Below, in pieces: positions 46,598-56,842 of a DNA stretch of 62,380 nt. Source of the DNA: Ignavibacteriales bacterium (GTDB taxonomy: Bacteria > Bacteroidota > Ignavibacteria > UBA10030 > BY39); NCBI GenBank assembly GCA_037443685.1, contig JBBINX010000005.1:1-62380 (forward strand), in the 5' to 3' direction. A program made the position numbers and the translations under genes. Under the pieces are notes generated by a model. The model was given only the letters and a program-made list of their open reading frames with translations. It was not told where the DNA came from and did not search any database. Every line of letters begins with the position of its first letter. The first letter of the stretch is position 1.

Positions 46598-46861
46598 TCA
46601 ATCTGTGTTTGCACGAGATTTTGATAGTATTTGTAATTTACTGCGTAATGTACTTCTTGGTAATTTTAGTAAATTAGCAGCCGATGAGATGTTATTATTA
46701 GTTGTTTTTAAAGCCCATTCGAGGATTTCTTTTTCTTTTTTGTACATATATTCTTCATAAGGAGGAAATTGTTCTTGCTTATTGAAAATGTTATTATCTT
46801 TTTCTGTTATTTGCCGTGAATCACTCAGAATTAAATTATCAAGGGTGCCTGATTCAGACAT
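46598..46861 (-). CDS. C-terminal fragment of the sigma-54 activator: linker plus Fis-type HTH (HTH_8)
   Basis: ILEWALKTTNNNISSAANLLKLPRSTLRSKLQ. In frame with 46904..47962, separated from it by a TGA and 14 sense codons. Confidence 0.8.
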   Translation of the reverse strand: MSESGTLDNLILSDSRQITEKDNNIFNKQEQFPPYEEYMYKKEKEILEWALKTTNNNISSAANLLKLPRSTLRSKLQILSKSRANTD

Positions 46862-46903
46862 GATTATAATTCGTTCTGCAACGTTTTCTAACTCTCGGAT
46901 ATT

Positions 46904-47962
46904 TCAGGGCCAATTGTATTGAATAAGTTGGGACTGTATTTCGGGGGTAAGAAATTTTATTTTTTCTTCTGCACCACGTCGTTGGAAGAAATGAGTCAAC
47001 AACGGAATAATGTCTTCTTTTCGTTCACGTAAGGGAGGTAATTTGATGGGTATAATATTTAGCCGATAATAGAGGTCATCTCGAAATCGATTCGATTTTA
47101 CCCGATTATAAAGGTCAACTTTTGTAGCACATAGAACACGAACATTAATCGATATGTTTTCATCTCCACCTAATCTAACAAATTCTCTTTCTTGTAGTAC
47201 TCTGAGTAATTTTACCTGCAATGTCATTGGCAGATCATCGACATCATCAATAAAAATCGTTCCTCCGTTAGCTCTTTCGAAATAACCGATGTGGCGTTTG
47301 ATTGCACCAGTGAATGACCCCTTTTCATGTCCGAAAAGTTCGCTTTCGAGCAAAGATTCTGGTATAGCAGCACAGTTCATCGGAATAAACGGAGAAGCTT
47401 TTCTTGAGCTGTAAGAATGTAAAGCACGCGCAACTAATTCTTTGCCAGTTCCACTTTCACCTTCGATAAGTACTGTATAGTCATGTGCTGCAACTGCTTT
47501 AATGGTTTCTACAAGTTGCTTGGTTTGAGCGGAAATTCCTACAATAATTTTATCCTCAATACTTTTTAATTTCTTCCTTAATTTAGCATTTTCTTCCAAT
47601 GCATCGCGGAGTTGTTTGATGTGCTTCAACATGCTTATCAAGCGATCAGGTGAAAATGGCTTAGTCAAATAATCATAAGCACCCAATTTTATTGCTTCGA
47701 CTGCAGTGTCAATTGTAGCGAAAGCTGTTATTACAATAACGTAACAATTAGTATTTTTGGTTTTTACAGCTTTCAAAATATCCATTCCCGAAACGTGTGG
47801 AAGACGGAGGTCCGTTATTACTACATCAAAGTTGTTCTCAAAAAATTTATTTAAACCATCACGTCCGCTTTCTGTGCTGGTAATATCATAACCTTCTTTT
47901 TGTAATGTTTCGTCGAGTGTTATTCGAGTGATTTTTTCGTCTTCAATTAATAATATTTTCAT
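46904..47962 (-). CDS. NtrC-family sigma-54-dependent response regulator (receiver + AAA+ domain), terminated prematurely by an in-frame TGA
   Basis: Receiver domain (DVVITDLRLP, K in LTKPF). GESGTGKELVARALH, ESELFGHEKGSFTGA (GAFTGA-type loop), GTIFIDDVDD, RVLCAT, FRDDLYYRL. Ends ...LIQYNWP*. Confidence 0.9.
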   Translation of the reverse strand: MKILLIEDEKITRITLDETLQKEGYDITSTESGRDGLNKFFENNFDVVITDLRLPHVSGMDILKAVKTKNTNCYVIVITAFATIDTAVEAIKLGAYDYLTKPFSPDRLISMLKHIKQLRDALEENAKLRKKLKSIEDKIIVGISAQTKQLVETIKAVAAHDYTVLIEGESGTGKELVARALHSYSSRKASPFIPMNCAAIPESLLESELFGHEKGSFTGAIKRHIGYFERANGGTIFIDDVDDLPMTLQVKLLRVLQEREFVRLGGDENISINVRVLCATKVDLYNRVKSNRFRDDLYYRLNIIPIKLPPLRERKEDIIPLLTHFFQRRGAEEKIKFLTPEIQSQLIQYNWP

Positions 47963-49428
47963 TGTTCCATTTTAATCGGTAGGATTACTTTAAATTCAGT
48001 CTCTTTATTTGGAATACTTTTTACTTCTATATTTCCTCTGTGTGCTTCTACAATTCCTAAACTTACTGACAAGCCAAGCCCGGTTCCTTCTTTCGGTCCT
48101 TTTGTTGTGTAAAACGGTTCGAAAATATTTTGAAGATTATCTTCATTTATACCGATTCCATTATCTATCACCGAGACATATAATTGTTTAGGATCCAACA
48201 AACGGCTTTTTATAATAATAGAACCTGCTTCATTCACTGCGTCAATGCTGTTTAGTAGAATGTTCATAAAAACTTCGGTTATCAATTGCTCATCTGCTTG
48301 AATGTTTGGTAGTTTAAGATCCAAATCTAATTGAAACTGAATTTGTTTATTTTTAATTCTAAAATCTAATAGCCGTGATACCTTTTGTATCACCTCATTG
48401 ATATTTAAATAGACCATTGCTTTTTCCTGTTGGCGTGCAAAGGAAAGAAGCTTTTGTACCACAGTTTCAATATAGTTAATACCTTCTTCCACTAACTTTA
48501 AATATTCTTTTGTTTGTTGTTGGTTAGCTGGCTCTTTATATATAGCGTATAAACAATTTTTTATACCGTTCAATGGATTATTTATTTCGTGAGCGACTCC
48601 AGAAGCTAACCTCCCTATCGAGGCGAGTTTTTCTGCATTATAAATTTGTTTCTGTGCCTCTACGAGTTGCTTTTTCGAATGCGAAAGTCTTTTAAGTAAC
48701 AACCCGAACCGATAGTTTAAAAAGCCGATTTCATCGTTACGTTGGGGGAGAGAAATTTCAGTATCGGAGTCTATATCGGTTTTATCCATCGCATTGACGA
48801 GTATACGAAGCGAGTTTGTTAATCGTCCGATCGTTATATAAAGCACAACAAGAGTAACAATAATCACACAGGTTGTGATAAAAAATAAAAGAAAGAATAA
48901 TTTTTGAATTTCTGTACGCATTGATTCAGCATCAAAACCAATAATTAATACACCCCAGCGTTTGCTGGCTACACGCAATGGCAGAACTGTTTCGATTATC
49001 CATCCATAGTCTTCGGAGTTATGAATTGCGGTTATTAAAGAATCAGATTCCATCACCGCTACCTTTATTGGTTCTTTTATTCCTTGGTCATACTTGGTGA
49101 AATCGCTATGAGCGAGTATTTGACGGGAGTTATTATACACTGCTATATATTTTATCCCTTCTATTGAATTCATAAAATTATTGATATAACGTTCGAGCAG
49201 ATCCTCGACTTGTGTGTTTTCTTTCTGCCCATAAATAAAAGCATCCGTTAGCGAAGTCGAAATAGCTTTTGTTACTGACGAAGCATTTTTTTCTTGGTTA
49301 GCAACTATTAGAGTTCGCCATTGAAAAAGTATGGTTATAGAGATAACTATCATCAGCAGAATAGTTATCCCTCCGATAACAACCATTAACTTAGTAACTA
49401 AGCCAACTTTGTATGGATTTTTATCCAA
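47959..49428 (-). CDS. Membrane sensor histidine kinase
   Basis: Two TM flanking a roughly 150-aa periplasmic domain, a HAMP-like linker, H-box SGVAHEINNPLNGI, N-box NILLNSIDA, G-boxes DNGIGI and GTGLGLSVS. 4-nt overlap with the regulator gene. Confidence 0.9.
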   Translation of the reverse strand: MDKNPYKVGLVTKLMVVIGGITILLMIVISITILFQWRTLIVANQEKNASSVTKAISTSLTDAFIYGQKENTQVEDLLERYINNFMNSIEGIKYIAVYNNSRQILAHSDFTKYDQGIKEPIKVAVMESDSLITAIHNSEDYGWIIETVLPLRVASKRWGVLIIGFDAESMRTEIQKLFFLLFFITTCVIIVTLVVLYITIGRLTNSLRILVNAMDKTDIDSDTEISLPQRNDEIGFLNYRFGLLLKRLSHSKKQLVEAQKQIYNAEKLASIGRLASGVAHEINNPLNGIKNCLYAIYKEPANQQQTKEYLKLVEEGINYIETVVQKLLSFARQQEKAMVYLNINEVIQKVSRLLDFRIKNKQIQFQLDLDLKLPNIQADEQLITEVFMNILLNSIDAVNEAGSIIIKSRLLDPKQLYVSVIDNGIGINEDNLQNIFEPFYTTKGPKEGTGLGLSVSLGIVEAHRGNIEVKSIPNKETEFKVILPIKMEQ

Positions 49429-49430
49429 TA

Positions 49431-50351
49431 TTACTTAACCTTTCTGCTTTGGATTAGTTTTCTTATGTGATGATAATCGCTGTCGGTAGCTTCCACGAAT
49501 CCGAAGGAAAATTCTTTGTCCCACGATTCTACTTTTTTTCTATTCTCGGGTTTACGAACGTCTAGATTCAATAGGGCTGTTTTTATTGCATCGACAACTT
49601 TGGGGTTAAAATCTTTCGGAACAACAATTGGAGAACCTGCCATAGGATAGGATTTAGCGATAATCCTAATCCCAAATTTAGCGTAATCTTTTGCAATTTG
49701 TTCTCTTACTACTCCCGCATCAAAATTTCCTTTTAAAACCTGGGATATCACCGTTTGATGATGTGAAAAATTAAAAATTGAATCCAGTTCATTTTGTTTA
49801 ATATTCTGTTTTTTTAATTCATAAAATAAAAACCAGTTTGTAGTAAATGATTGTTCAGATGGCAGTGCTATTCGCTTTCTACGGATATCATCGATACTGT
49901 GTATTCCACTGCCACTTTTTGTAATAAGTACGGAATGGAAAAAGGGTTCTGAATTTTCATTTAAAGGTTTTAAAATACATTTAACGCCAAATTTATCATG
50001 CGCTCCCACATACACATAAGACCCAAGAAATGCCGCCTCAACTTTGTGATTTACAAGCTGCTGAACTGTTTCATCATAATTTGAGCTAAGTTTGAGTTCG
50101 AACTTAAAATCAGAGTTTTCACTTAAGTAATCCATCAATGGTTGATAACCCTGAAAAATAACCGGCGGCGGATAACGTGAAACAACGCCAATAAATATTG
50201 TATCTTTTTTTAATGTAACAGCTCTGTTATTCAAATTTTCTTGAAAATTTGGAAAGGGTTTTTGAATATCGAGGACAGACAAATATATCAAAGTGGTGGC
50301 TGAAGCTAAAACAATAATTATTAACACAATTAGACAAACTTCTTTTTTCAT
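49431..50351 (-). CDS. PhnD-like (phosphate/phosphite/phosphonate-type) periplasmic substrate-binding protein
   Basis: Signal anchor MKKEVCLIVLIIIVLASA. IGVVSRYPPPVIFQGYQPLMDYLSE...YDETVQQLVNHKVEAAFLGSYVY resembles the Phosphonate-bd fold. The ORF-track start at 50387 is probably too long. Confidence 0.65.
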   Translation of the reverse strand: MKKEVCLIVLIIIVLASATTLIYLSVLDIQKPFPNFQENLNNRAVTLKKDTIFIGVVSRYPPPVIFQGYQPLMDYLSENSDFKFELKLSSNYDETVQQLVNHKVEAAFLGSYVYVGAHDKFGVKCILKPLNENSEPFFHSVLITKSGSGIHSIDDIRRKRIALPSEQSFTTNWFLFYELKKQNIKQNELDSIFNFSHHQTVISQVLKGNFDAGVVREQIAKDYAKFGIRIIAKSYPMAGSPIVVPKDFNPKVVDAIKTALLNLDVRKPENRKKVESWDKEFSFGFVEATDSDYHHIRKLIQSRKVK

Positions 50352-50394
50352 AATGAAAAATATAGTATTTAGATGATGAAAAAGCAAACATTGA

Positions 50395-50440
50395 GGCGAT
50401 TTATCGCCACTTTATCGGTGTCTATTCGCCACAAAGGCGA
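50395..50440. promoter_or_regulatory. Two palindromic operator/UAS-like sites built from GGCGAT/ATCGCC half-sites
   Basis: GGCGAT-TT-ATCGCC (50395-50408) and TTCGCC-ACAAA-GGCGAT (50425-50441 region), in the divergent intergenic region about 110-155 nt upstream of the sigma-54-like promoter. Confidence 0.5.
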
Positions 50441-50550
50441 TATTTCGTTCTAATAAAAAATAAATAATTATTTTCTCTGTAAAAAACCTCTATATGATCA
50501 ATAATTTCAAGAATTTTATCTGCTGAGCGACTTGAAAAATCGTTTTAAAA

Positions 50551-50565
50551 TGGCACTTTTTTTGA
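50551..50565 (+). promoter_or_regulatory. Sigma-54 (-24/-12)-like promoter
   Basis: TGGCAC-ttttt-TTGA versus the consensus TGGCAC-N5-TTGC(A/T). Correct GG-to-G spacing (12 nt), one mismatch at the -12 C. It lies 59 nt upstream of ATG 50624. Confidence 0.55.
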
Positions 50566-50623
50566 CTTTATTTAATTGGTTTTAACTATAATTTTTTTAT
50601 CTTAAGAAAAAAAAGGAACAATT

Positions 50624-51208
50624 ATGGAAAATATTATACCTCGATGGGAGTGGCGTACTTTTTCTAACGATCTTGGTAAAGCAGAAGAAAACATAAGAAA
50701 ACACTCGGAAGGAAAGACACGGGAGAGTAATGAAGTTTATATACTTTCTGAAGTTAGCAATGATAACACAAAAGTGCGTGATGATCTTATGGATATTAAA
50801 ACTCTGCAGCAAGTTAATGAAGATCGCTTGGAACAATGGTTACCGATTATGAAGGGAGCTTTTCCGCTTCCTGTTTCTGAAATTGAGAAAGTATTTAAAT
50901 GTTTTAAAGTTGCTCTCCCTAAGTTTAAGCGAACTGAATATACATTCCAACAATATCTTGATGAGCTTATTCGTCCTTCTAAATTGTTAAAAGCAGTTAA
51001 TGTACATAAAAAAAGAACAGGTTTTACAATAAACAATACGATTGTAGAAATTGCAGAAGTAACTGTCGAAGGTAAAGTTATAAAGACCGCCGCAGTTGAA
51101 ATGGAAGACCCTGAACTTGTAATTAAAACCGTAAGAGAGCTTGGACTAGATACTTTTCCGAATATTAATTATCTTCGCGGGTTAAAAAACTTAATCGGAA
51201 TGAAATAG
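50624..51208 (+). CDS. CYTH-like domain protein with a degenerate N-terminal ExExK strand
   Basis: The strand pattern resembles CYTH (EWRTF in place of EIERKF; TKVRDD; MDIKTL; KKRTGFTINNTIVEIAEV). Assignment is by eye only. Confidence 0.4.
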   Translation: MENIIPRWEWRTFSNDLGKAEENIRKHSEGKTRESNEVYILSEVSNDNTKVRDDLMDIKTLQQVNEDRLEQWLPIMKGAFPLPVSEIEKVFKCFKVALPKFKRTEYTFQQYLDELIRPSKLLKAVNVHKKRTGFTINNTIVEIAEVTVEGKVIKTAAVEMEDPELVIKTVRELGLDTFPNINYLRGLKNLIGMK

Positions 51209-51217
51209 GAGAACGAA

Positions 51218-51685
51218 ATGGCAAATGAAATTGAACGAAAATTTTTAGTAAAAGGTGAGTTCAAAAAATTTGTAAGTAAGGAAACGCGAATCGTTCAGGG
51301 GTATCTTTCATCGGTACCCGAACGGACGGTGAGAGTTCGCATTAAGGGCGACAAAGGTTATATAACCATCAAAGGAATTGGTAATACTTCAGGTGCCAGC
51401 CGATATGAATGGGAGAAGGAAATTTCAATAAACGAAGTTGAAGAATTATTAAAAATATGTGAACCCGGTGTCATTGATAAAACCCGTTTTTTGGTAAAAG
51501 TCGGTAATCATACTTTCGAAGTAGATGAATTCCATGGTGAGAATAAAGGACTTGTTCTCGCAGAAATTGAATTAGCTTCAGAAAGTGAAACTTTTCAAAA
51601 ACCAGATTGGCTCGGTGAAGAAGTTACGGGCGACATAAAATATTATAACTCAATGTTGATGAAAATTCCTTATACAAAATGGTAA
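51218..51685 (+). CDS. CYTH-domain protein (CyaB/ThTPase-type triphosphate tunnel metalloenzyme)
   Basis: MANEIERKFLV (ExExK), RVRIKGDKGYITIKG, KTRF.V..G..FEVDEF.GEN.GLVLAEIEL. Confidence 0.85.
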   Translation: MANEIERKFLVKGEFKKFVSKETRIVQGYLSSVPERTVRVRIKGDKGYITIKGIGNTSGASRYEWEKEISINEVEELLKICEPGVIDKTRFLVKVGNHTFEVDEFHGENKGLVLAEIELASESETFQKPDWLGEEVTGDIKYYNSMLMKIPYTKW

Positions 51686-51732
51686 GAACAAATGCTTAAT
51701 AACAACATTCATTTTCATTTATTAAATTTGAT

Positions 51733-53328
51733 ATGAGTAAATTTGACCCACTCGATATGCATAACTACCGCATCGAGAAACTACCAAAACGTGATAAATC
51801 AAAAATTGAAAAGTGGCTTGCAATACTTGGGCCTATATTAGCAATTGCCGCTTTTGTTTTATTCGCTTTTATTATAAAACTACCTTTTCTTAATTCCATC
51901 GATTCAACTCAATTGGTAACAGATGCAGCGAAGGAAGTTTATAATAAATTAGGTCACGATGCATTTGTAAAAAACAACGAATTCATGCTTGCAATTTTTG
52001 TTGCATCCATTATTCTTTGGATGACACAGTCAATTCCAAATTATTTGACATCTCTTTTGCTGATTATAAGTCTAGTGCTAACGGGTGTACTATCGGAAAA
52101 AGTCGCTTATGCTCAACTCGGTCATCCTGTTATGTGGTTGAACATAATGTCGTTCGTGCTTGCAAGTATGTTAGTCGTTACCGGACTTGCAAAACGATTT
52201 GCTCTTTGGCTGATTATCAAATTTGGTAAAAATGCGAGCACAATATTTATAAGTTTTATTGTTATTAATCTCGTCATGTCTGCATTTATATCCGCAACAA
52301 CTGCAAAAGCGGCAATACTGCTACCTATCTTTATGGTGATAGCGGCTATCTATGGAGCGCAAAGCGGAGTAAATAGGAATAATTTTGGGCGGAGTATAGT
52401 CCTTCAAAATCTTTTAAACATTAATCTTGGTGCTGGCGCTTTTGTAACAGGTTCAGGAGCCAATCTGTTAGCTGCTGCACTTATAGGTGGAGCTATTGGT
52501 GGAAAAATTTTCTTCTCCGATTGGATGATCGCGATGTTTCCTGTGATGCTTTGTTTGATGTTTATTGGTTACTTACTTGCTATGAAGATATTTTTCCCTC
52601 TAAAACTTGAAGAACGGTTACCGTTAATTGAGGGGGGCATGGAGAGGTTAAAAGAAGAATACGATAAACTCGGTTCAATAAGTTTTCTCGAGATTAAATC
52701 GGCAATTATTTTTATTGCCATCCTTGCCCTTTGGGCTACAGATAGTATTCACGGGATTAGTGCGACTGCGGTAGCATTTTTCGGAGCGATTGTAGCGCTG
52801 CTACCAAGAATTGGAATTGTAAAATGGAATGATGTTGACATCCCATGGCATCTCATGTTATTCTCTGCTGGTGCTTATACTCTTGGTGCCGGTTTGGATG
52901 CCACAGACCTCCCATCGATTAGTGTAAATGCTTTTTTCGACCATCTGGGAATTGGTAAAAATACAAGTTTTTGGCTGCTGTATTTATTATTAACTGGAGT
53001 TATGGTTTTTAGCGCACTTATTTTCCAATCTAAAACTATGCGTGCTATGATATTCATACCAATTGCGATTGGTGTAGCTAACAGATTCGGTTTTAATGTT
53101 GTAAGCCTCGCATTACCAGTTGCTTTTATGATTGAGCACGTTTATGTATTACCTTTTAACAGTAAGCCAGCCGCTTTGCTTTATGAAACCGACCATTATA
53201 GTTTAACCGATACGTTCAAATATGGATTCACAATGATGGTGATTGCCTGGCTGCTCATAATTGTTGCAGGTGAAACTTGGTTCAGATATTTAGGAATAAC
53301 TCCAAACGGAATTTTCGGAATATTTTGA
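51733..53328 (+). CDS. SLC13/DASS-family anion permease
   Basis: Polytopic, with a duplicated hairpin motif (WMTQSIPNYLTSLLL and MIEHVYVLPFNSKPAAL) typical of DASS/ArsB-NhaD superfamily permeases. Confidence 0.7.
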   Translation: MSKFDPLDMHNYRIEKLPKRDKSKIEKWLAILGPILAIAAFVLFAFIIKLPFLNSIDSTQLVTDAAKEVYNKLGHDAFVKNNEFMLAIFVASIILWMTQSIPNYLTSLLLIISLVLTGVLSEKVAYAQLGHPVMWLNIMSFVLASMLVVTGLAKRFALWLIIKFGKNASTIFISFIVINLVMSAFISATTAKAAILLPIFMVIAAIYGAQSGVNRNNFGRSIVLQNLLNINLGAGAFVTGSGANLLAAALIGGAIGGKIFFSDWMIAMFPVMLCLMFIGYLLAMKIFFPLKLEERLPLIEGGMERLKEEYDKLGSISFLEIKSAIIFIAILALWATDSIHGISATAVAFFGAIVALLPRIGIVKWNDVDIPWHLMLFSAGAYTLGAGLDATDLPSISVNAFFDHLGIGKNTSFWLLYLLLTGVMVFSALIFQSKTMRAMIFIPIAIGVANRFGFNVVSLALPVAFMIEHVYVLPFNSKPAALLYETDHYSLTDTFKYGFTMMVIAWLLIIVAGETWFRYLGITPNGIFGIF

Positions 53329-53405
53329 TATGTTCGTTACACATTTTTTGATATATTTTATAGACGTTCTAAAGGAAAAATAAAAACAATTAATTGGATA
53401 CACCG

Positions 53406-54050
53406 ATGGATTTATTATTACGAAAAACAAAAGAACTTGAGATGCAGATAGACGAATATCTTGATATGGCAGTAAAAGGAGCCTTAATTTTTCGACAGGG
53501 GATAAAACACTATTTGAATAATCAGGTTGAAGAATTTACAGAGGATAGGCATAGGATTGATGAAATGGAAAGCAAGGGGGATGCTCTTAGGCGTTCGATT
53601 GAAACAAGGTTGTATTTAGAAACTCTTATACCTGAATTTCGAGGCGATGTATTGGGTTTGCTCGAGAGCACTGACAAAGTTTTAAATATGACAGCCGATA
53701 CACTCGCTCAATTTGAAGTTGAAAAACCTAAAATTTTAGATGAATTAAAACCATTATTCTTAGAGTTAGCAGATGCTGCAACTTCAGCTATTGAATCAAT
53801 GGCTTTAGCTATCCGGTCCTATTTCAAAGAATTGAATAAAGTTCGGGATAATATCAACAAGGTGATGTTTTATGAAAAGGAGACAGATAAGATCAGCGAT
53901 AGGATAAAAAGAACAGTTTTTCAGACAGACTTAGATTTAAGTTTAAAAATACACACGCGTTATTTTGCTTATCACATCGAATTAATTGCTGATGAAGCTG
54001 AAGATGTATGCGACCGTTTATCTATTGCTGCAATTAAAAGGCATTTATGA
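53406..54050 (+). CDS. DUF47/TIGR00153 PhoU-like phosphate-transport regulator
   Basis: Helical-bundle sequence with E.E.D..RR and YFAYHIELIADEAEDVCDRL. The ATGA overlap with the PiT gene is the canonical DUF47-PiT pair. The ORF-track TTG at 53394 is an alternative start. Confidence 0.8.
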   Translation: MDLLLRKTKELEMQIDEYLDMAVKGALIFRQGIKHYLNNQVEEFTEDRHRIDEMESKGDALRRSIETRLYLETLIPEFRGDVLGLLESTDKVLNMTADTLAQFEVEKPKILDELKPLFLELADAATSAIESMALAIRSYFKELNKVRDNINKVMFYEKETDKISDRIKRTVFQTDLDLSLKIHTRYFAYHIELIADEAEDVCDRLSIAAIKRHL

Positions 54051-55537
54051 TTTGGTTTTTTCTAACAAGCGGTTTATTCCTTGGATGGTCATTAGGCGCT
54101 AACGATGGGGTAAATGTTTTCGGGACGGCGGTTTCTTCACGGATGGTGAAGTTTAAATTGGCTGCCTTAATCGCCGGTACATTCATTATTTTAGGTGCAG
54201 TTATCAGTGGTGGTGGAACGACACGTACACTTACCGACTTAGGTGCAGTGAACGCTCTCGCAGGTAGTTTTACAGTGGCTTTAGCTGCAGGTATTGCAGT
54301 AGCATCCATGACGCGACTCAAACTTCCGGTATCAACCTCTCAAGCGATTGTTGGTGGAATTATTGGTTGGAATTTATTTACGGGTTCACCAACAGATACT
54401 TCAGTTTTGTCAAAAATAGTAATGACGTGGGTAGTATCTTTGGTTTTATCCGCTGTATTTGCCTTTATCCTTTTTAAATTCACAACTATCATTTTAAAAA
54501 AAATTAAAATCCATATTCTTCACCTGGATTATTTTACTCGGATGGGTTTAATAGTCGTTGGTGCATTTGCGTCTTATTCATTAGGAGCAAGCAATATCGC
54601 CAATGTTATGGGTATGTTCGTCAATGCTTCTCCTTTCGAAAGCATAAATGTATTTGATCTTTTCCATTTTTCGGGAACTCAACAACTCTTTTTGATAGGT
54701 GGAATAGCGATTGCAGTCGGCATTTATACATATGGCTATAAAGTGATGGTTACTGTCGGTAATCAGTTGTTCAAAATAACACCTATTACTGGTCTAATTG
54801 TGGTATTAGCTGAATCGTTAGTACTGTTTTTATTCGCATCGGAAGGACTTGAAACCCTACTTATAAACAACGGCTTACCACCAATTCCGCTGGTTCCGTT
54901 ATCAAGTACCCAAGTAGTCATTGGGGCAGTCGTCGGAGTTGGCCTTGCAAAAGGTGGCGGCGGAATCAATTACAAAATTTTAGGTAAAATATCTATCGGC
55001 TGGGTAGCAGTGCCGATAATTGCCGCGTTAATAAGTTTTGTAACTCTTTTCTTCGTTCAAAATGTTTTCGAGCAAAAAGTTGTGCAACAGATTCCTTACA
55101 AGTTATCCGAAGACGTTATCGATGCGCTCGGTGAACAAAATATTCAAAAAGAACCGTTATTAAAATTGAAAAATTCATACTATCTCGGTTCGGCTAATTT
55201 CCGTTATGCTTTGAGTAAACAACAAAGATGGAATGAAGATCAACTCTTTTTAATTTTTTCTTATGCAGCACTTGACAGCTTCCTCATCGATTCGTCATTT
55301 GTAAAAGAAACTCTCAAAGATGATTTAATAATGCCTGAACGATTAGAAGTATTAAAAAAATTGCACGGACAAATCTTTGTCCATAAATGGCAACTCGAAA
55401 AAGCTCTTGCTGACTCAGGCAACGCTTGGAAAACTCAATCTGGAAAAGGAGCAAAATTGTATAATAAAATACTTAAACGTGAAAAATATTTAGTATTCGA
55501 TACATTTAGGATTAAATCAAAAATAATTATTAATTAA
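54047..55537 (+). CDS. pit: PiT-family inorganic phosphate transporter with a roughly 150-aa C-terminal soluble extension
   Basis: Duplicated signature GANDGVNVFGTAVSSR and GASNIANVMG. Polytopic. Confidence 0.88.
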   Translation: MIWFFLTSGLFLGWSLGANDGVNVFGTAVSSRMVKFKLAALIAGTFIILGAVISGGGTTRTLTDLGAVNALAGSFTVALAAGIAVASMTRLKLPVSTSQAIVGGIIGWNLFTGSPTDTSVLSKIVMTWVVSLVLSAVFAFILFKFTTIILKKIKIHILHLDYFTRMGLIVVGAFASYSLGASNIANVMGMFVNASPFESINVFDLFHFSGTQQLFLIGGIAIAVGIYTYGYKVMVTVGNQLFKITPITGLIVVLAESLVLFLFASEGLETLLINNGLPPIPLVPLSSTQVVIGAVVGVGLAKGGGGINYKILGKISIGWVAVPIIAALISFVTLFFVQNVFEQKVVQQIPYKLSEDVIDALGEQNIQKEPLLKLKNSYYLGSANFRYALSKQQRWNEDQLFLIFSYAALDSFLIDSSFVKETLKDDLIMPERLEVLKKLHGQIFVHKWQLEKALADSGNAWKTQSGKGAKLYNKILKREKYLVFDTFRIKSKIIIN

Positions 55538-55558
55538 TAATAATAATGAGGTGAACTA

Positions 55559-56842
55559 ATGAATAACAAAAAAAATATTATTTTAGTAATAGCATCAGTG
55601 ATGCTAACTGTTTTCGGTTTTAGCGGATTGATGGCGCAAGATTCGAAAAGCCCCGGGGAAGAATATAAAGCCCCATTAGCCGCCGAGGTTCGTAACGGAA
55701 AACTTTTCTTCGCTTCTGAAGACGGAAATTTTAGCTGGTGGTTCGATTCCCGGCTTCAAATTGATGGAGCTATGTATTTCGAGAACAAGAATCTGATGAG
55801 TAATGGTGTTACATTAAGAAGACTCACCTTTGCACTCAAGGCAATTCTCTGGAAGGATTGGGCGGCTGAACTTGACGTTGATTTTGGCGAGGCAGTTTCG
55901 ACCAAATCTCAAATATCTTTAAGAGATATGTGGATAAAATATACTTTCCCTTCTTTTAATTTTGCCCTTCAAGTAGGACATTTTAAAGAACCTTTTGGAA
56001 TGGAAAGATTAAATAGTTCCCGACTATTGACTTTCTTAGAACGGTCTGCAGTATCTAATGCTATAGCCCTTGGAAGACGAATAGGGGGGGCTGCCAGATA
56101 TTGGAACAACTATGGTCAAGTTACAGCAGCAATCATGGGACACGAAGCTGGGACCAGAGTAGATAAAGGACAACGAGACGAAGGCTTTTCTACAAACCTT
56201 CGTACATCCGTAGCACCAATAAATAAAGATGGACATAACTTGCACATAGGATTTGCTGGTTCCTACAAAATTCCAGACGTTGTCGCTGACCTAAGCCGCA
56301 ACACAATTGAGGTTAACGCCCGCACAGAAACTTATGTATTCAATCCGAAGTTTTTACATACCGGCGATATTAATGATGTAAATTATTATAATCGTTATGG
56401 TACCGAGTTAATGTACATAAATGGACCGTTCTATTTTCAGTCCGAATTTATGGGGATGTCAATTAAACGCTGGAAAACTAAACCGACTGTTAATTTAAGG
56501 GGTGGCTATGCGATGGCGTCCTATATGCTAACGGGTGAAACACGTTATTATCACATTGATGAAGGCGAGGTTGGAGCAATCGAACCGCCAAAAAATAGCT
56601 GGGGTGCATTAGAATTAGCGGCTCGTTACAGTGTTACAAATCTGAACCACTTTAATGCCGGGATAAGGGGTGGACAGTCGAACCAATTAATGCTCGGAAT
56701 AAATTATTACCCCAATATGAATATCAAACTCCAATTCAATTATTCATTCGTTAACTTAGACCAGTATGCTACAAGAAAAGGTAACTTAATTGGAGATGAT
56801 GACCATTCATTCATTCAAATGCGCCTTCAAGCATCATTATAA
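55559..56842 (+). CDS. Phosphate-selective porin O/P family outer-membrane protein
   Basis: Signal peptide present. FSWWFDSRLQIDGAMYFE, LRRLTFALKAILWKDWAAELDVDF, FKEPFGMERLNSSR. C-terminal aromatic-rich strand. Confidence 0.8.
   Translation: MNNKKNIILVIASVMLTVFGFSGLMAQDSKSPGEEYKAPLAAEVRNGKLFFASEDGNFSWWFDSRLQIDGAMYFENKNLMSNGVTLRRLTFALKAILWKDWAAELDVDFGEAVSTKSQISLRDMWIKYTFPSFNFALQVGHFKEPFGMERLNSSRLLTFLERSAVSNAIALGRRIGGAARYWNNYGQVTAAIMGHEAGTRVDKGQRDEGFSTNLRTSVAPINKDGHNLHIGFAGSYKIPDVVADLSRNTIEVNARTETYVFNPKFLHTGDINDVNYYNRYGTELMYINGPFYFQSEFMGMSIKRWKTKPTVNLRGGYAMASYMLTGETRYYHIDEGEVGAIEPPKNSWGALELAARYSVTNLNHFNAGIRGGQSNQLMLGINYYPNMNIKLQFNYSFVNLDQYATRKGNLIGDDDHSFIQMRLQASL

What the first reader, a model, noticed from the sequence alone, without database searches (positions are those of the whole stretch)
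50388..50623. Divergent control region: four GGCGAT half-sites plus a TGGCAC-N5-TTGA sigma-54-like promoter facing the CYTH-PiT-porin operon
- The region lies between the minus-strand PhnD-like/kinase/activator operon and the plus-strand operon.
- It contains GGCGAT-TT-ATCGCC (50395-50408) and TTCGCC-ACAAA-GGCGAT (about 50425-50441).
- At 50551-50565 there is a -24/-12 element with correct spacing and one mismatch (TTGA for TTGC), 59 nt before ATG 50624.
- Established knowledge: bacterial enhancer-binding proteins bind palindromic upstream activating sequences about 80-150 bp upstream of sigma-54 promoters. The geometry here, about 110-155 nt, fits.
- Inference: the neighbouring two-component system drives the downstream phosphorus operon through sigma-54. 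That differs from the classical PhoBR/sigma-70 Pho box.
Basis: partly seen in the sequence, partly recalled or inferred. Interest (0 to 1): 0.6.

Follow-up and report, generated by a model that had tools for sequence, protein, structure and literature searches.

The report
Sigma-54 switch for phosphate-uptake operon
This 270-base gap between two gene sets holds a sigma-54 promoter and three binding sites for the neighbouring sensor-kinase-activator trio, which together switch on a phosphate-uptake operon; the mechanism is ordinary, but wiring it to phosphate is uncharacterised.

Summary

**Promoter.**
- TGGCAC-N5-TTGA (50551-50565) ranks about 7th of 4.25 million genome positions under a matrix built only from orthologous promoters.
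- The same GGCAY-N5-TTG core lies 47-92 nt (one at 192 nt) before the first gene in 47 of 50 loci that carry the regulators. Shuffles give 2.9%.
- It is absent from all 15 loci that have neither regulators nor transporters.
- A at the -12 position is the commonest variant in this genome, so it is not a defect.

**Activator sites.**
- The GGCGAT half-sites are real, but the unit is a 14-bp palindrome, G[GA]CGA-N4-TCG[CT]C.
- Three copies sit at 50395-50408, 50417-50430 and 50436-50449, with centres 22 and 19 bp apart.
- Orthologues keep two or three such sites at fixed distances. The sites stay with the target promoter when the regulator genes lie elsewhere.

**Context.**
- rpoN is intact.
- The closest known system is the AioXSR/ArxXSR arsenic sensor.
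- Here the activator gene has an in-frame TGA before its DNA-binding domain, so the switch may be dead in this genome.
- This scan already described the same system in three other genomes.

The parts
50395..50408 (.). Activator site 1, GGCGATTTATCGCC. It is a perfect 14-bp palindrome (10/10 half-site positions). Its centre is 151 bp upstream of the promoter GG, about -176 from the predicted start.
   Evidence: It is the only GGCGAT-N2-ATCGCC in the genome.
50417..50430 (.). Activator site 2, GGTGTCTATTCGCC. The left half is degenerate and the right half perfect (8/10). Its centre is 22 bp from site 1.
   Evidence: The same 22-bp spacing is seen in L065, L067, L069, L078 and the Ignavibacteriaceae loci.
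50436..50449 (.). Activator site 3, GGCGATATTTCGTT (9/10). Its centre is 19 bp from site 2 and 110 bp upstream of the promoter GG.
   Evidence: A spacing of 18-19 bp is the commonest between sites in orthologues.
50551..50565 (+). Sigma-54 promoter, TGGCAC-TTTTT-TTGA. GG is at 50552-50553 (-25/-24) and TG at 50563-50564, with A in place of the consensus C at -12.
50577..50577 (+). Predicted transcription start (plus or minus 2 nt), giving a 5' UTR of about 47 nt. This is an inference from the usual -24/-12 geometry and has not been mapped.
   Evidence: Inference and established sigma-54 promoter geometry.
50613..50617 (+). Shine-Dalgarno sequence AAGGA, 6 nt before the ATG at 50624.
50624..56842 (+). 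Target operon: a 194-aa CYTH-like protein (50624-51208), CYTH (51218-51685), a DASS symporter (51733-53328), DUF47/PhoU_div (53394-54050), PiT (54047-55537) and porin O/P (55559-56842). The gaps between genes run from -4 to 65 nt. No convincing intergenic plus-strand terminator was found.
   Evidence: The gene order is conserved.
49431..50351 (-). PhnD-family periplasmic binding protein with an N-terminal membrane anchor, the presumed ligand sensor. The likely start is the ATG at 50351; the longest ORF runs to the TTG at 50387.
   Evidence: PF12974, 1e-51; best solved relative is ArrX at 1e-19, then PtxB.
47959..49428 (-). Sensor histidine kinase with sCache_3_2, HisKA and HATPase_c domains.
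46598..47962 (-). Sigma-54 enhancer-binding protein with a receiver domain, an AAA+ domain carrying GSFTGA, and a Fis-type HTH. An in-frame TGA at 46904-46906 replaces the Gly of WPGN(I/V)RELEN and interrupts it.
   Evidence: All 38 orthologues have Gly there and a single ORF of about 450-550 aa, one longer. TGA is an ordinary stop codon in this genome.

Best explanation
The 272-bp gap (50352-50623) is a divergent control region whose main element is a sigma-54 (-24/-12) promoter at 50551-50565.

**Proposed mechanism.**
1. The promoter fires into the CYTH-like, CYTH, DASS, DUF47, PiT and porin O/P operon from about 50577.
2. It is activated from three 14-bp palindromes, G[GA]CGA-N4-TCG[CT]C, at 50395-50449.
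3. Dimers of the neighbouring NtrC-type activator bind these palindromes through its Fis-type HTH.
4. The membrane-anchored PhnD-family binding protein senses a phosphorus oxyanion in the periplasm. Phosphate is the most likely ligand, but the ligand is not established.
5. The binding protein modulates the Cache-domain kinase, which phosphorylates the activator's receiver domain.
6. The activator oligomerises on the clustered sites, reaches the sigma-54 holoenzyme by DNA looping across about 100 bp of 26%-GC spacer, and uses ATP to open the promoter.

**Shown here.**
- The motifs, their non-random placement and their conservation.
- The co-occurrence of the motifs with the regulators.
- Intact rpoN.

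**Inferred.**
- Binding, looping, the ligand, the polarity of the signal (induced by low or by high phosphate) and the transcription start.

In this genome the activator gene carries an in-frame TGA between the AAA+ and HTH parts. The cis-elements are intact, but the switch may be recently disabled, unless the TGA is an assembly error or the DNA-binding-less AAA+ part still activates from solution.
For: **The promoter motif is specific to gene fronts.**
- GGCA[CT]-N5-TTG has 21 of 53 copies outside ORFs and 14 with an ORF 15-150 nt downstream. Spacings N4, N6 and N7 give 0, 0 and 1.
- This number matches the roughly 15 sigma-54 activators in the genome.
- The window's site ranks about 7th on a matrix built from orthologues only.

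**Conservation.**
- 47 of 50 regulator-linked loci have the core on the forward strand, 47-92 nt (one at 192 nt) before the ATG.
- 1 of 50 has it on the reverse strand, shuffles give 2.9%, and 0 of 15 loci without regulators or transporters have it.

**Activator sites.**
- Orthologues have two or three palindromes, mostly centred 60-125 bp upstream of the GG, with centre spacings of 18-19 or 22 bp.
- The window has the three-site 22+19 arrangement, seen as 22+18 in L067, L069 and L078.
- In this genome the cluster is unique.

**Link to this activator.**
- Half-site position 2 tracks the HTH recognition helix:
  - PRTTL[N/S/T]SK goes with GACGA/TCGTC.
  - PRTTLRSK goes with mixed half-sites.
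  - PRSTLRSK (window, L069, L065) goes with GGCGA/TCGCC.
- Five operons without adjacent regulators keep both the sites and the promoter. Their genomes encode the binding-protein orthologue elsewhere, with no site cluster within 1.5 kb of it (one isolated 9/10 match in L101).

**Machinery.**
- RpoN is 484 aa with an RpoN box.
- The activator matches PF00158 at 4e-70 and has GSFTGA.

**Exclusions.**
- No sigma-70-type promoter match in 50250-50700, where shuffles give 2.2.
- No Rfam family at or above its threshold.
Against: - There is no transcript or binding data.
- The activator gene is interrupted by TGA before the HTH. As assembled, no single protein here has both the ATPase and the DNA-binding domain.
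- The covariation between helix and half-site rests on about three clade-level changes, so it is suggestive only.
- The ortholog promoter set was picked with a regular expression, so the invariant columns of the matrix are partly circular.
- Site 2 is weak (8/10).
- The sites lie further from the promoter (110-151 bp) than in most orthologues (60-125 bp).
Confidence: 0.85

Rival explanations
1. The cis-elements are a relic. The promoter and sites were functional, but in this genome the activator is a pseudogene (GGA to TGA). The operon is then silent or runs only from another, unseen promoter.
For: - There is an in-frame TGA at the invariant Gly. All 38 orthologues are intact there.
- TGA ends 381 of 1539 long ORFs, so it is a normal stop codon here.
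- The window's activator has a long terminal branch, 0.85 against a median of 0.16.
- The locus was not found in 10 same-family genomes, which suggests it is dispensable.
Against: - Site 1 is perfect, the promoter scores high, and all other genes of the locus are open. Any inactivation would therefore be recent.
- A single-base error in a 131-contig MAG cannot be excluded. I could not check reads, and no second copy was found in other collections.
- From my own knowledge, activators without a DNA-binding domain, such as FlgR of Helicobacter, can still activate.
- The long branch may only reflect sparse sampling.
Confidence: 0.3
2. The palindromes are operators for the divergent regulator operon, acting in autoregulation or bound by another factor. 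They are not enhancer sites for the plus-strand promoter.
For: Site 1 lies only about 50 bp upstream of the binding-protein ATG at 50351. Binding there could well affect that operon's promoter. From my own knowledge, NtrC-type activators often autoregulate.
Against: - Where the regulator genes are encoded elsewhere, the palindromes remain in front of the sigma-54 promoter. Within 1.5 kb of the relocated binding-protein gene there is no site cluster, only one isolated 9/10 match in L101.
- Their distance to the promoter GG is constrained.
- A dual role remains possible.
Confidence: 0.07
3. The -24/-12 match is chance, or TCGCC-ACAAA-GGCGA (50426-50440) followed by T-rich sequence is a hairpin or terminator. 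On this reading the operon uses a housekeeping-sigma promoter.
For: - The simple scan flags 50426-50440 as terminator-like.
- By composition, TGGCAC-N5-TTG is expected about 9 times in the genome and occurs 14 times (my arithmetic).
Against: - No plus-strand gene ends upstream that would need terminating.
- The hairpin is a by-product of two adjacent palindromes. It is not kept where the inner halves differ, for example CCGCC/GACCA in L004.
- The motif is conserved in 47 of 50 loci and is strand-specific.
- The exact-spacing control argues against chance.
- No sigma-70-like site was found.
Confidence: 0.04

Closest known systems
AioXSR / ArxXSR three-component arsenite-sensing systems (Badilla et al. 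2018, PMC5908839)
   Same: - A PhnD-family periplasmic binding protein with no ABC transporter partner is encoded beside a sensor kinase and an AtoC/NtrC-type sigma-54 activator.
- The activator binds a conserved sequence upstream of an RpoN promoter in front of the target operon.
- The best solved relative of the binding protein here is the sister sensor ArrX (1e-19). ArrX binds arsenate, and also phosphate more weakly.
   Different: - The target is a phosphate-transport operon (PiT, DASS, porin O/P, DUF47, CYTH), not arsenite oxidase.
- The binding motif G[GA]CGA-N4-TCG[CT]C is unlike the reported ArxR site gtaacaattcaagc.
- AioX itself is not among the sequence hits.
- The ligand is unknown.
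- The host phyla are Ignavibacteriota and Calditrichota rather than Proteobacteria.
NtrBC at glnAp2, and ZraSR / AtoSC (classical two-component sigma-54 activation)
   Same: - The activator has a receiver, an AAA+ domain and a Fis-type HTH, and scores best against the NtrC and AtoC models (1.5e-111 and 3.6e-111, below their cut-offs).
- Clustered dyad sites lie roughly 100-150 bp upstream of a GG-N10-GC promoter. That dimers on adjacent sites nucleate the active oligomer is from my own knowledge.
   Different: - An extra periplasmic binding-protein component is present.
- The site sequence is different.
- There are three sites at 22 and 19 bp rather than two about 32 bp apart.
- The regulon appears to be a single operon.
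PhoR-PhoB with the Pho box (sigma-70) and Pst signalling
   Same: It controls phosphate-acquisition genes, including a porin O/P homologue. From my own knowledge, OprO and OprP are Pho-regulated in Pseudomonas.
   Different: - It uses a different sigma factor, a different activator family and a different sensor.
- No PhoB or PstB scores over the model cut-off in this 94%-complete genome.
- Pst co-exists with the system in four of five other carriers checked.
PgtABC-PgtP of Salmonella (phosphoglycerate transport). This comparison is from my own knowledge and was not tested here.
   Same: A periplasmic protein (PgtC), a kinase (PgtB) and an NtrC-family regulator (PgtA) control a transporter gene. 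The PgtA and PgtB models give weak hits to the activator and kinase here.
   Different: The scores are far below the cut-offs: 146 against 650 and 103 against 1000. The binding-protein family, the substrate and the target are all different.

Membership tests
Sigma-54 (-24/-12) promoter | GG and GC (or TGC) elements exactly 10 bp apart, of the form YTGGCACG-N4-TTGCW | tested here: met
   TGGCAC-N5-TTGA at 50551-50565. The -12 C is replaced by A. A is found in 14 of 52 ortholog promoters and in 6 of 14 likely promoters of this genome.
Sigma-54 (-24/-12) promoter | rpoN present in the genome | tested here: met
   PF04552 match at 2.9e-55 on C73. The ORF is 484 aa, with region I and the RpoN box ARRTIAKYRE.
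Sigma-54 (-24/-12) promoter | A cognate enhancer-binding protein with an AAA+ sigma-54 interaction domain and a GAFTGA loop | tested here: inconclusive
   PF00158 at 4.3e-70 and a GSFTGA loop are present. However, the gene has an in-frame TGA before the HTH, and I could not check the reads.
Sigma-54 (-24/-12) promoter | Upstream activator sites about 80-150 bp (or more) from the promoter | tested here: met
   Three 14-bp palindromes are centred 110, 129 and 151 bp upstream of the GG, and are conserved in orthologues.
Sigma-54 (-24/-12) promoter | Transcription starts about 12 nt after the -12 element and depends on RpoN and the activator | not testable with these tools
AioXSR/ArxXSR-type three-component system | A PhnD-family binding protein encoded with a kinase and a sigma-54 activator, without ABC permease or ATPase genes | tested here: met
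   PF12974 at 1e-51 is followed by the kinase and then the activator. No ABC genes are in the locus. The layout is conserved in about 50 loci.
AioXSR/ArxXSR-type three-component system | The binding protein belongs to the sensor subfamily (AioX/ArxX/ArrX) rather than to transport PhnD | tested here: inconclusive
   ArrX is the best solved relative (1e-19), ahead of PtxB (1e-14) and E. coli PhnD (1.8e-5). AioX was not hit and no tree was built. The ArrX pocket stretch PYYQA reads PFFHS here.
AioXSR/ArxXSR-type three-component system | Senses an arsenic oxyanion and controls aio, arx or arr genes | tested here: not met
   The target genes are PiT, DASS, porin O/P, DUF47 and CYTH, with no arsenic genes. 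The ligand was not tested.
PhoBR / Pho box regulon | An OmpR-family PhoB regulator acting at a sigma-70 promoter | tested here: not met
   The adjacent regulator is NtrC-type. The best PhoB-model hit in the genome is 90 bits against a 296-bit cut-off and covers the receiver domain only. No sigma-70-like promoter lies in the gap. I did not scan systematically for a Pho box.

The most novel reading that the evidence does not exclude
The binding protein, kinase and sigma-54 activator form a dedicated phosphate (or short condensed-phosphate) sensing system of the FCB-group phyla. It takes the place of PhoR-PhoB/Pst signalling in lineages where neither was detected, such as this genome, or where PstB was not detected, such as the IGN3 chromosome. 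Its ligand specificity evolved from the same sensor stock as the arsenic sensors AioX and ArrX. The residue at the R/N position of the HTH recognition helix sets the G or A preference at half-site position 2.
Probability: 0.3. Interest if true: 0.6.

Novelty: new variant of a known kind. Interest (0 to 1): 0.45.

Why it matters
**Why it matters.**
- Phosphate acquisition is almost always described as PhoR-PhoB/sigma-70 controlled. Here a conserved module in Ignavibacteriota, Calditrichota and allied uncultured lineages puts secondary phosphate transporters, an outer-membrane phosphate porin and triphosphate-tunnel enzymes under sigma-54. Control runs through a periplasmic co-sensor of the arsenic-sensor type.
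- No paper in the searched library describes this wiring.

**What this report adds.**
- A base-level map of the switch: three 14-bp sites, their spacing, the promoter and the predicted start.
- A candidate protein-DNA recognition rule.
- These make the system directly testable by gel shift and reporter assays.

**Limits.**
- The mechanism itself is textbook sigma-54 activation.
- The same system has already been reported by this scan in three other genomes.

Tried and rejected
- **Sequencing runs.** I wanted them to map the start and to check the TGA.
- **Second copy of the activator allele.** An exact-pattern scan of metagenome contigs around the TGA, with N at the variable base, gave 0 hits. 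An identity look-up of the 352-aa product found nothing on record.
- **Structured RNA.** An Rfam scan of 50250-50750 gave only sub-threshold noise, 22-25 bits against gathering scores of 70-78. A riboswitch or leader is rejected.
- **Sigma-70 promoter.** The scan of the gap gave 0 sites.
- **Terminator or everted-repeat reading of TCGCC-ACAAA-GGCGA.** Rejected as a by-product of adjacent palindromes.
- **Alternative genetic code (TGA = Gly).** Rejected. ORFs of 150 aa or more under table 11 add up to 1.82 Mb, about 86% of the genome's length, and TGA ends 25% of them.
- **A wider regulon for the palindrome.** Rejected. Genome-wide counts equal the shuffled expectation and there is no second cluster.
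- **Regulator-module swap.** The idea was that the regulators are Calditrichota-like while the structural genes are Ignavibacteriaceae-like. I did not pursue it, because the activator's placement rests on a near-zero internal branch with 96/76 support.
- **Literature.** Searches for sigma-54 with phosphate transport, PhnD-like sensors, porin O/P or Ignavibacterium found no description of this system.

Full report
**1. What is in the sequence**

- GGCGAT-TT-ATCGCC at 50395-50408
- TTCGCC-ACAAA-GGCGAT at 50425-50441
- TGGCAC-TTTTT-TTGA at 50551-50565
- AAGGA at 50613-50617
- ATG at 50624

Genes on the minus strand:
- A PhnD-family binding protein (PF12974, 1e-51). Its likely start is the ATG at 50351, which gives an N-terminal membrane anchor MKKEVCLIVLIIIVLASA.
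- A kinase with sCache_3_2, HisKA and HATPase_c domains.
- An NtrC-type activator with a receiver domain and PF00158 (4e-70).

Genes on the plus strand, with gaps of -4 to 65 nt and no convincing internal terminator:
- a 194-aa protein with no family match
- CYTH
- a DASS symporter
- DUF47/PhoU_div
- PiT
- porin O/P

The true intergenic gap is therefore 50352-50623.

**2. Is the sigma-54 motif more than chance?**

- The genome is 2.13 Mb, 37% GC, in 131 contigs and 94% complete. It has an intact rpoN of 484 aa with region I and the RpoN box. It has about 15 sigma-54 activators.
- GGCA[CT]-N5-TTG occurs 53 times. 21 copies lie wholly outside ORFs of 90 aa or more, although only 11.5% of the genome does (binomial 1.5e-7). 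14 of these have a same-strand ORF start 15-150 nt downstream.
- The same halves spaced by N4, N6 or N7 give 0, 0 and 1 such cases. A sigma-54 regulon of about 14 promoters is therefore visible, and the window's site is one of them.
- On a matrix built from 52 distinct orthologous promoters that excludes the window, the site scores 16.8 bits, about 7th of 4.25 million positions. Eight of the top ten are intergenic; seven of these lie 35-95 nt before an ORF start and the eighth overlaps one.
- The 'mismatch' (A for C at -12) is not one by local standards. After TTG the orthologues have C 21, A 14, T 13 and G 4. TTGA is also the commonest form among this genome's own likely promoters.

**3. Conservation of the promoter**

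- The 194-aa protein is highly conserved: 66-84% identical to three relatives' copies and up to 93% elsewhere. I used it to fetch 79 loci.
- About 50 of these loci have the same divergent layout. They come from MAGs labelled Ignavibacteriota, Melioribacteraceae, 'Chitinophagaceae'/Bacteroidota and Calditrichota.
- In 47 of 50 such loci a GG[CT]A[CT]-N5-[TAC][TC]G core lies on the forward strand, 47-92 nt (one at 192 nt) before the ATG. This compares with 1 of 50 on the reverse strand and 2.9% in shuffles.
- The three exceptions have GGCA[CT] with a degenerate -12 element: TAGA, TAGC and GTGA.
- None of 15 loci where the 194-aa gene stands without regulators or transporters has the core (Acidobacteriota, Clostridia). 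The two WOR-3 loci, which carry DUF47 and PiT upstream of the gene, also lack it.
- The leading T of TGGCAC is not conserved; GGGCAC and CGGCAT are frequent.
- Caveat: the promoter set was selected by a regular expression, so the invariance of the core columns is partly circular. The frequency, strand and spacing tests are not.

**4. The upstream sites and the correct register**

- Scoring every 14-mer for G[GA]CGA-N4-TCG[CT]C shows two or three such palindromes in almost every orthologue. They sit at constrained distances from the promoter GG. Typical centres are -71/-90, -81/-100 or -100/-122, with 18-19 or 22 bp between centres.
- The window has three:

| Site | Coordinates | Sequence | Score |
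|---|---|---|---|
| 1 | 50395-50408 | GGCGATTTATCGCC | 10/10 |
| 2 | 50417-50430 | GGTGTCTATTCGCC | 8/10 |
| 3 | 50436-50449 | GGCGATATTTCGTT | 9/10 |

- Their centres lie 151, 129 and 110 bp upstream of the GG. That is about -176, -154 and -135 from a predicted start near 50577.
- The same three-site pattern, with 22 bp then 18-19 bp between centres, is seen in Calditrichota loci L067, L069 and L078.
Its hairpin potential, flagged as terminator-like, is a by-product of two adjacent dyads. It is lost where the inner halves differ, as in L004.
- In the window's genome, single matches occur at chance frequency: 1015, 80 and 3 observed against 1007, 73 and 2 shuffled. This is the only triple cluster. 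The regulon therefore looks like this one operon.

**5. Do the sites belong to this activator and this promoter?**

Two tests bear on this.

First, the sequence of the Fis-type recognition helix tracks half-site position 2:

| Recognition helix | Half-sites |
|---|---|
| PRTTL(N/S/T)SK | GACGA/TCGTC |
| PRTTLRSK | mixed GACGA...TCGCC |
| PRSTLRSK (window, L069, L065) | GGCGA/TCGCC |

An Arg-to-guanine and Asn-to-adenine reading is chemically plausible, on my own knowledge. However, the activator tree shows the states are largely clade-wide, with about three changes plus the L069/L073 contrast. This is suggestive, not proof.

Second, five operons lack adjacent regulators (L036, L042, L043, L055, L058). 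They keep both the palindromes and the promoter. Each of their genomes encodes one binding-protein orthologue elsewhere (44-48% identity). Within 1.5 kb of those genes there is no site cluster, only one isolated 9/10 match in L101.

The sites therefore travel with the target promoter, not with the regulator genes. This argues against an 'autoregulatory operator only' reading. A secondary effect on the divergent operon remains possible, because site 1 is only about 50 bp from the binding protein's ATG.

**6. The flaw in this copy**

- The activator reads ...YNWP-TGA-NIRELEN....
- All 38 orthologues have Gly there, within one ORF of about 450-550 aa (one longer).
- TGA is a normal stop codon in this genome, ending 381 of 1539 long ORFs. 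Table-11 ORFs of 150 aa or more add up to about 86% of the genome's length.
- As assembled, the receiver-AAA+ part (352 aa) and the HTH (an 87-aa ORF) are therefore separate.
- I could not check reads and found no second copy of the allele.
- The cis-elements show no decay. The options are an assembly error, a recent nonsense mutation that leaves the switch dead or weakened, or residual activation from solution by the part that lacks the DNA-binding domain.

**7. Comparison with known systems**

- The best solved relative of the binding protein is ArrX (1e-19), followed by the phosphite binders PtxB and HtxB. E. coli PhnD follows at only 1.8e-5.
- Badilla et al. 2018 (PMC5908839) describe AioX, ArxX and ArrX as sensor binding proteins. 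In the Aio and Arx systems they feed a kinase and an AtoC-type sigma-54 activator, which binds upstream of an RpoN promoter. ArrX binds arsenate at 1 uM and phosphate at 150 uM.
- The system here works like AioXSR/ArxXSR. It fails membership on the defining point: its targets are phosphate transporters, not arsenic enzymes. Its DNA motif also differs.
- It is not PhoBR. The regulator family and the sigma factor differ, and this genome shows no PhoB or PstB over the model cut-offs.
- Pst is present in four of five other carrier genomes and not detected in the complete IGN3 chromosome. In general the module therefore supplements the classical system rather than replacing it.
- Literature searches found no description of sigma-54 control of such an operon.

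**8. Verdict**

- The ligand, the signal polarity, the start site and activity in this particular genome remain open.
- The mechanism is ordinary sigma-54 enhancer activation. Wiring it to phosphate uptake through an arsenic-sensor-like co-sensor is an uncharacterised variant.
- The same system has already been reported by this scan in three other genomes (e1-2945995, e1-3999421, e1-2858960). The system-level novelty is therefore not new to the scan. This report adds the base-level anatomy of the switch and the tests in sections 2-5.

Noticed in passing
window 46904-46906 (minus strand), within 46598-47962: An in-frame TGA replaces the invariant Gly of WPGN(I/V)RELEN in the sigma-54 activator. 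It splits the receiver-AAA+ part (352 aa) from the HTH (87-aa ORF). All 38 orthologues are intact there. The activator also has a long terminal branch in its tree (0.85 against a median of 0.16).
   Followed up: partly
whole genome G000 (for example C7:50173, C29:9636, C42:3836, C14:28123, C16:15427, C16:20942, C36:2154, C33:16566): About 14 likely sigma-54 promoters (GGCA[CT]-N5-TTG, intergenic, 15-150 nt before an ORF) match about 15 sigma-54 activators. Several lie directly beside activator genes. The -12 element is most often TTGA rather than TTGC.
   Followed up: partly
whole genome G000; also G061 (the IGN3 chromosome holding L068): No PstB or PhoB over the model cut-offs was found in this 94%-complete genome, and no PstB in the complete IGN3 chromosome. 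Four other carriers of the locus do have Pst. The PhoB model's cut-off is too strict outside Proteobacteria; only 2 of 14 control genomes pass it.
   Followed up: partly
relatives G001-G010 (same family as the window's genome): Neither the binding protein nor the 194-aa first gene was found in 10 same-family genomes, including the same-genus one. The 194-aa protein is nevertheless 92-93% identical to copies in Ignavibacteriaceae-labelled MAGs. The distribution is patchy, from gain, loss or mis-binning of the 62-kb contig.
   Followed up: no
L036, L042, L043, L055, L058 and L099-L103: In a Melioribacteraceae-type subgroup the regulator genes are not adjacent to the operon; they are, for example, about 60 kb away in G063. 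The operon still keeps its two palindromes and its sigma-54 promoter.
   Followed up: yes
window 50624-51208: The 194-aa first gene has no Pfam or NCBIfam match. It is far more conserved (83-93% identity across families) than any other gene of the locus: the regulators are 41-65% identical and PiT 50-58% in the Ignavibacteriota-type loci. It also occurs alone in Acidobacteriota and Clostridia MAGs, without the promoter.
   Followed up: no
window 50497-50509: ATCAA-TAAT-TT, a partial match to the IHF consensus WATCAANNNNTTR, lies midway between the sites and the promoter in a 26%-GC spacer. Its conservation was not examined.
   Followed up: no
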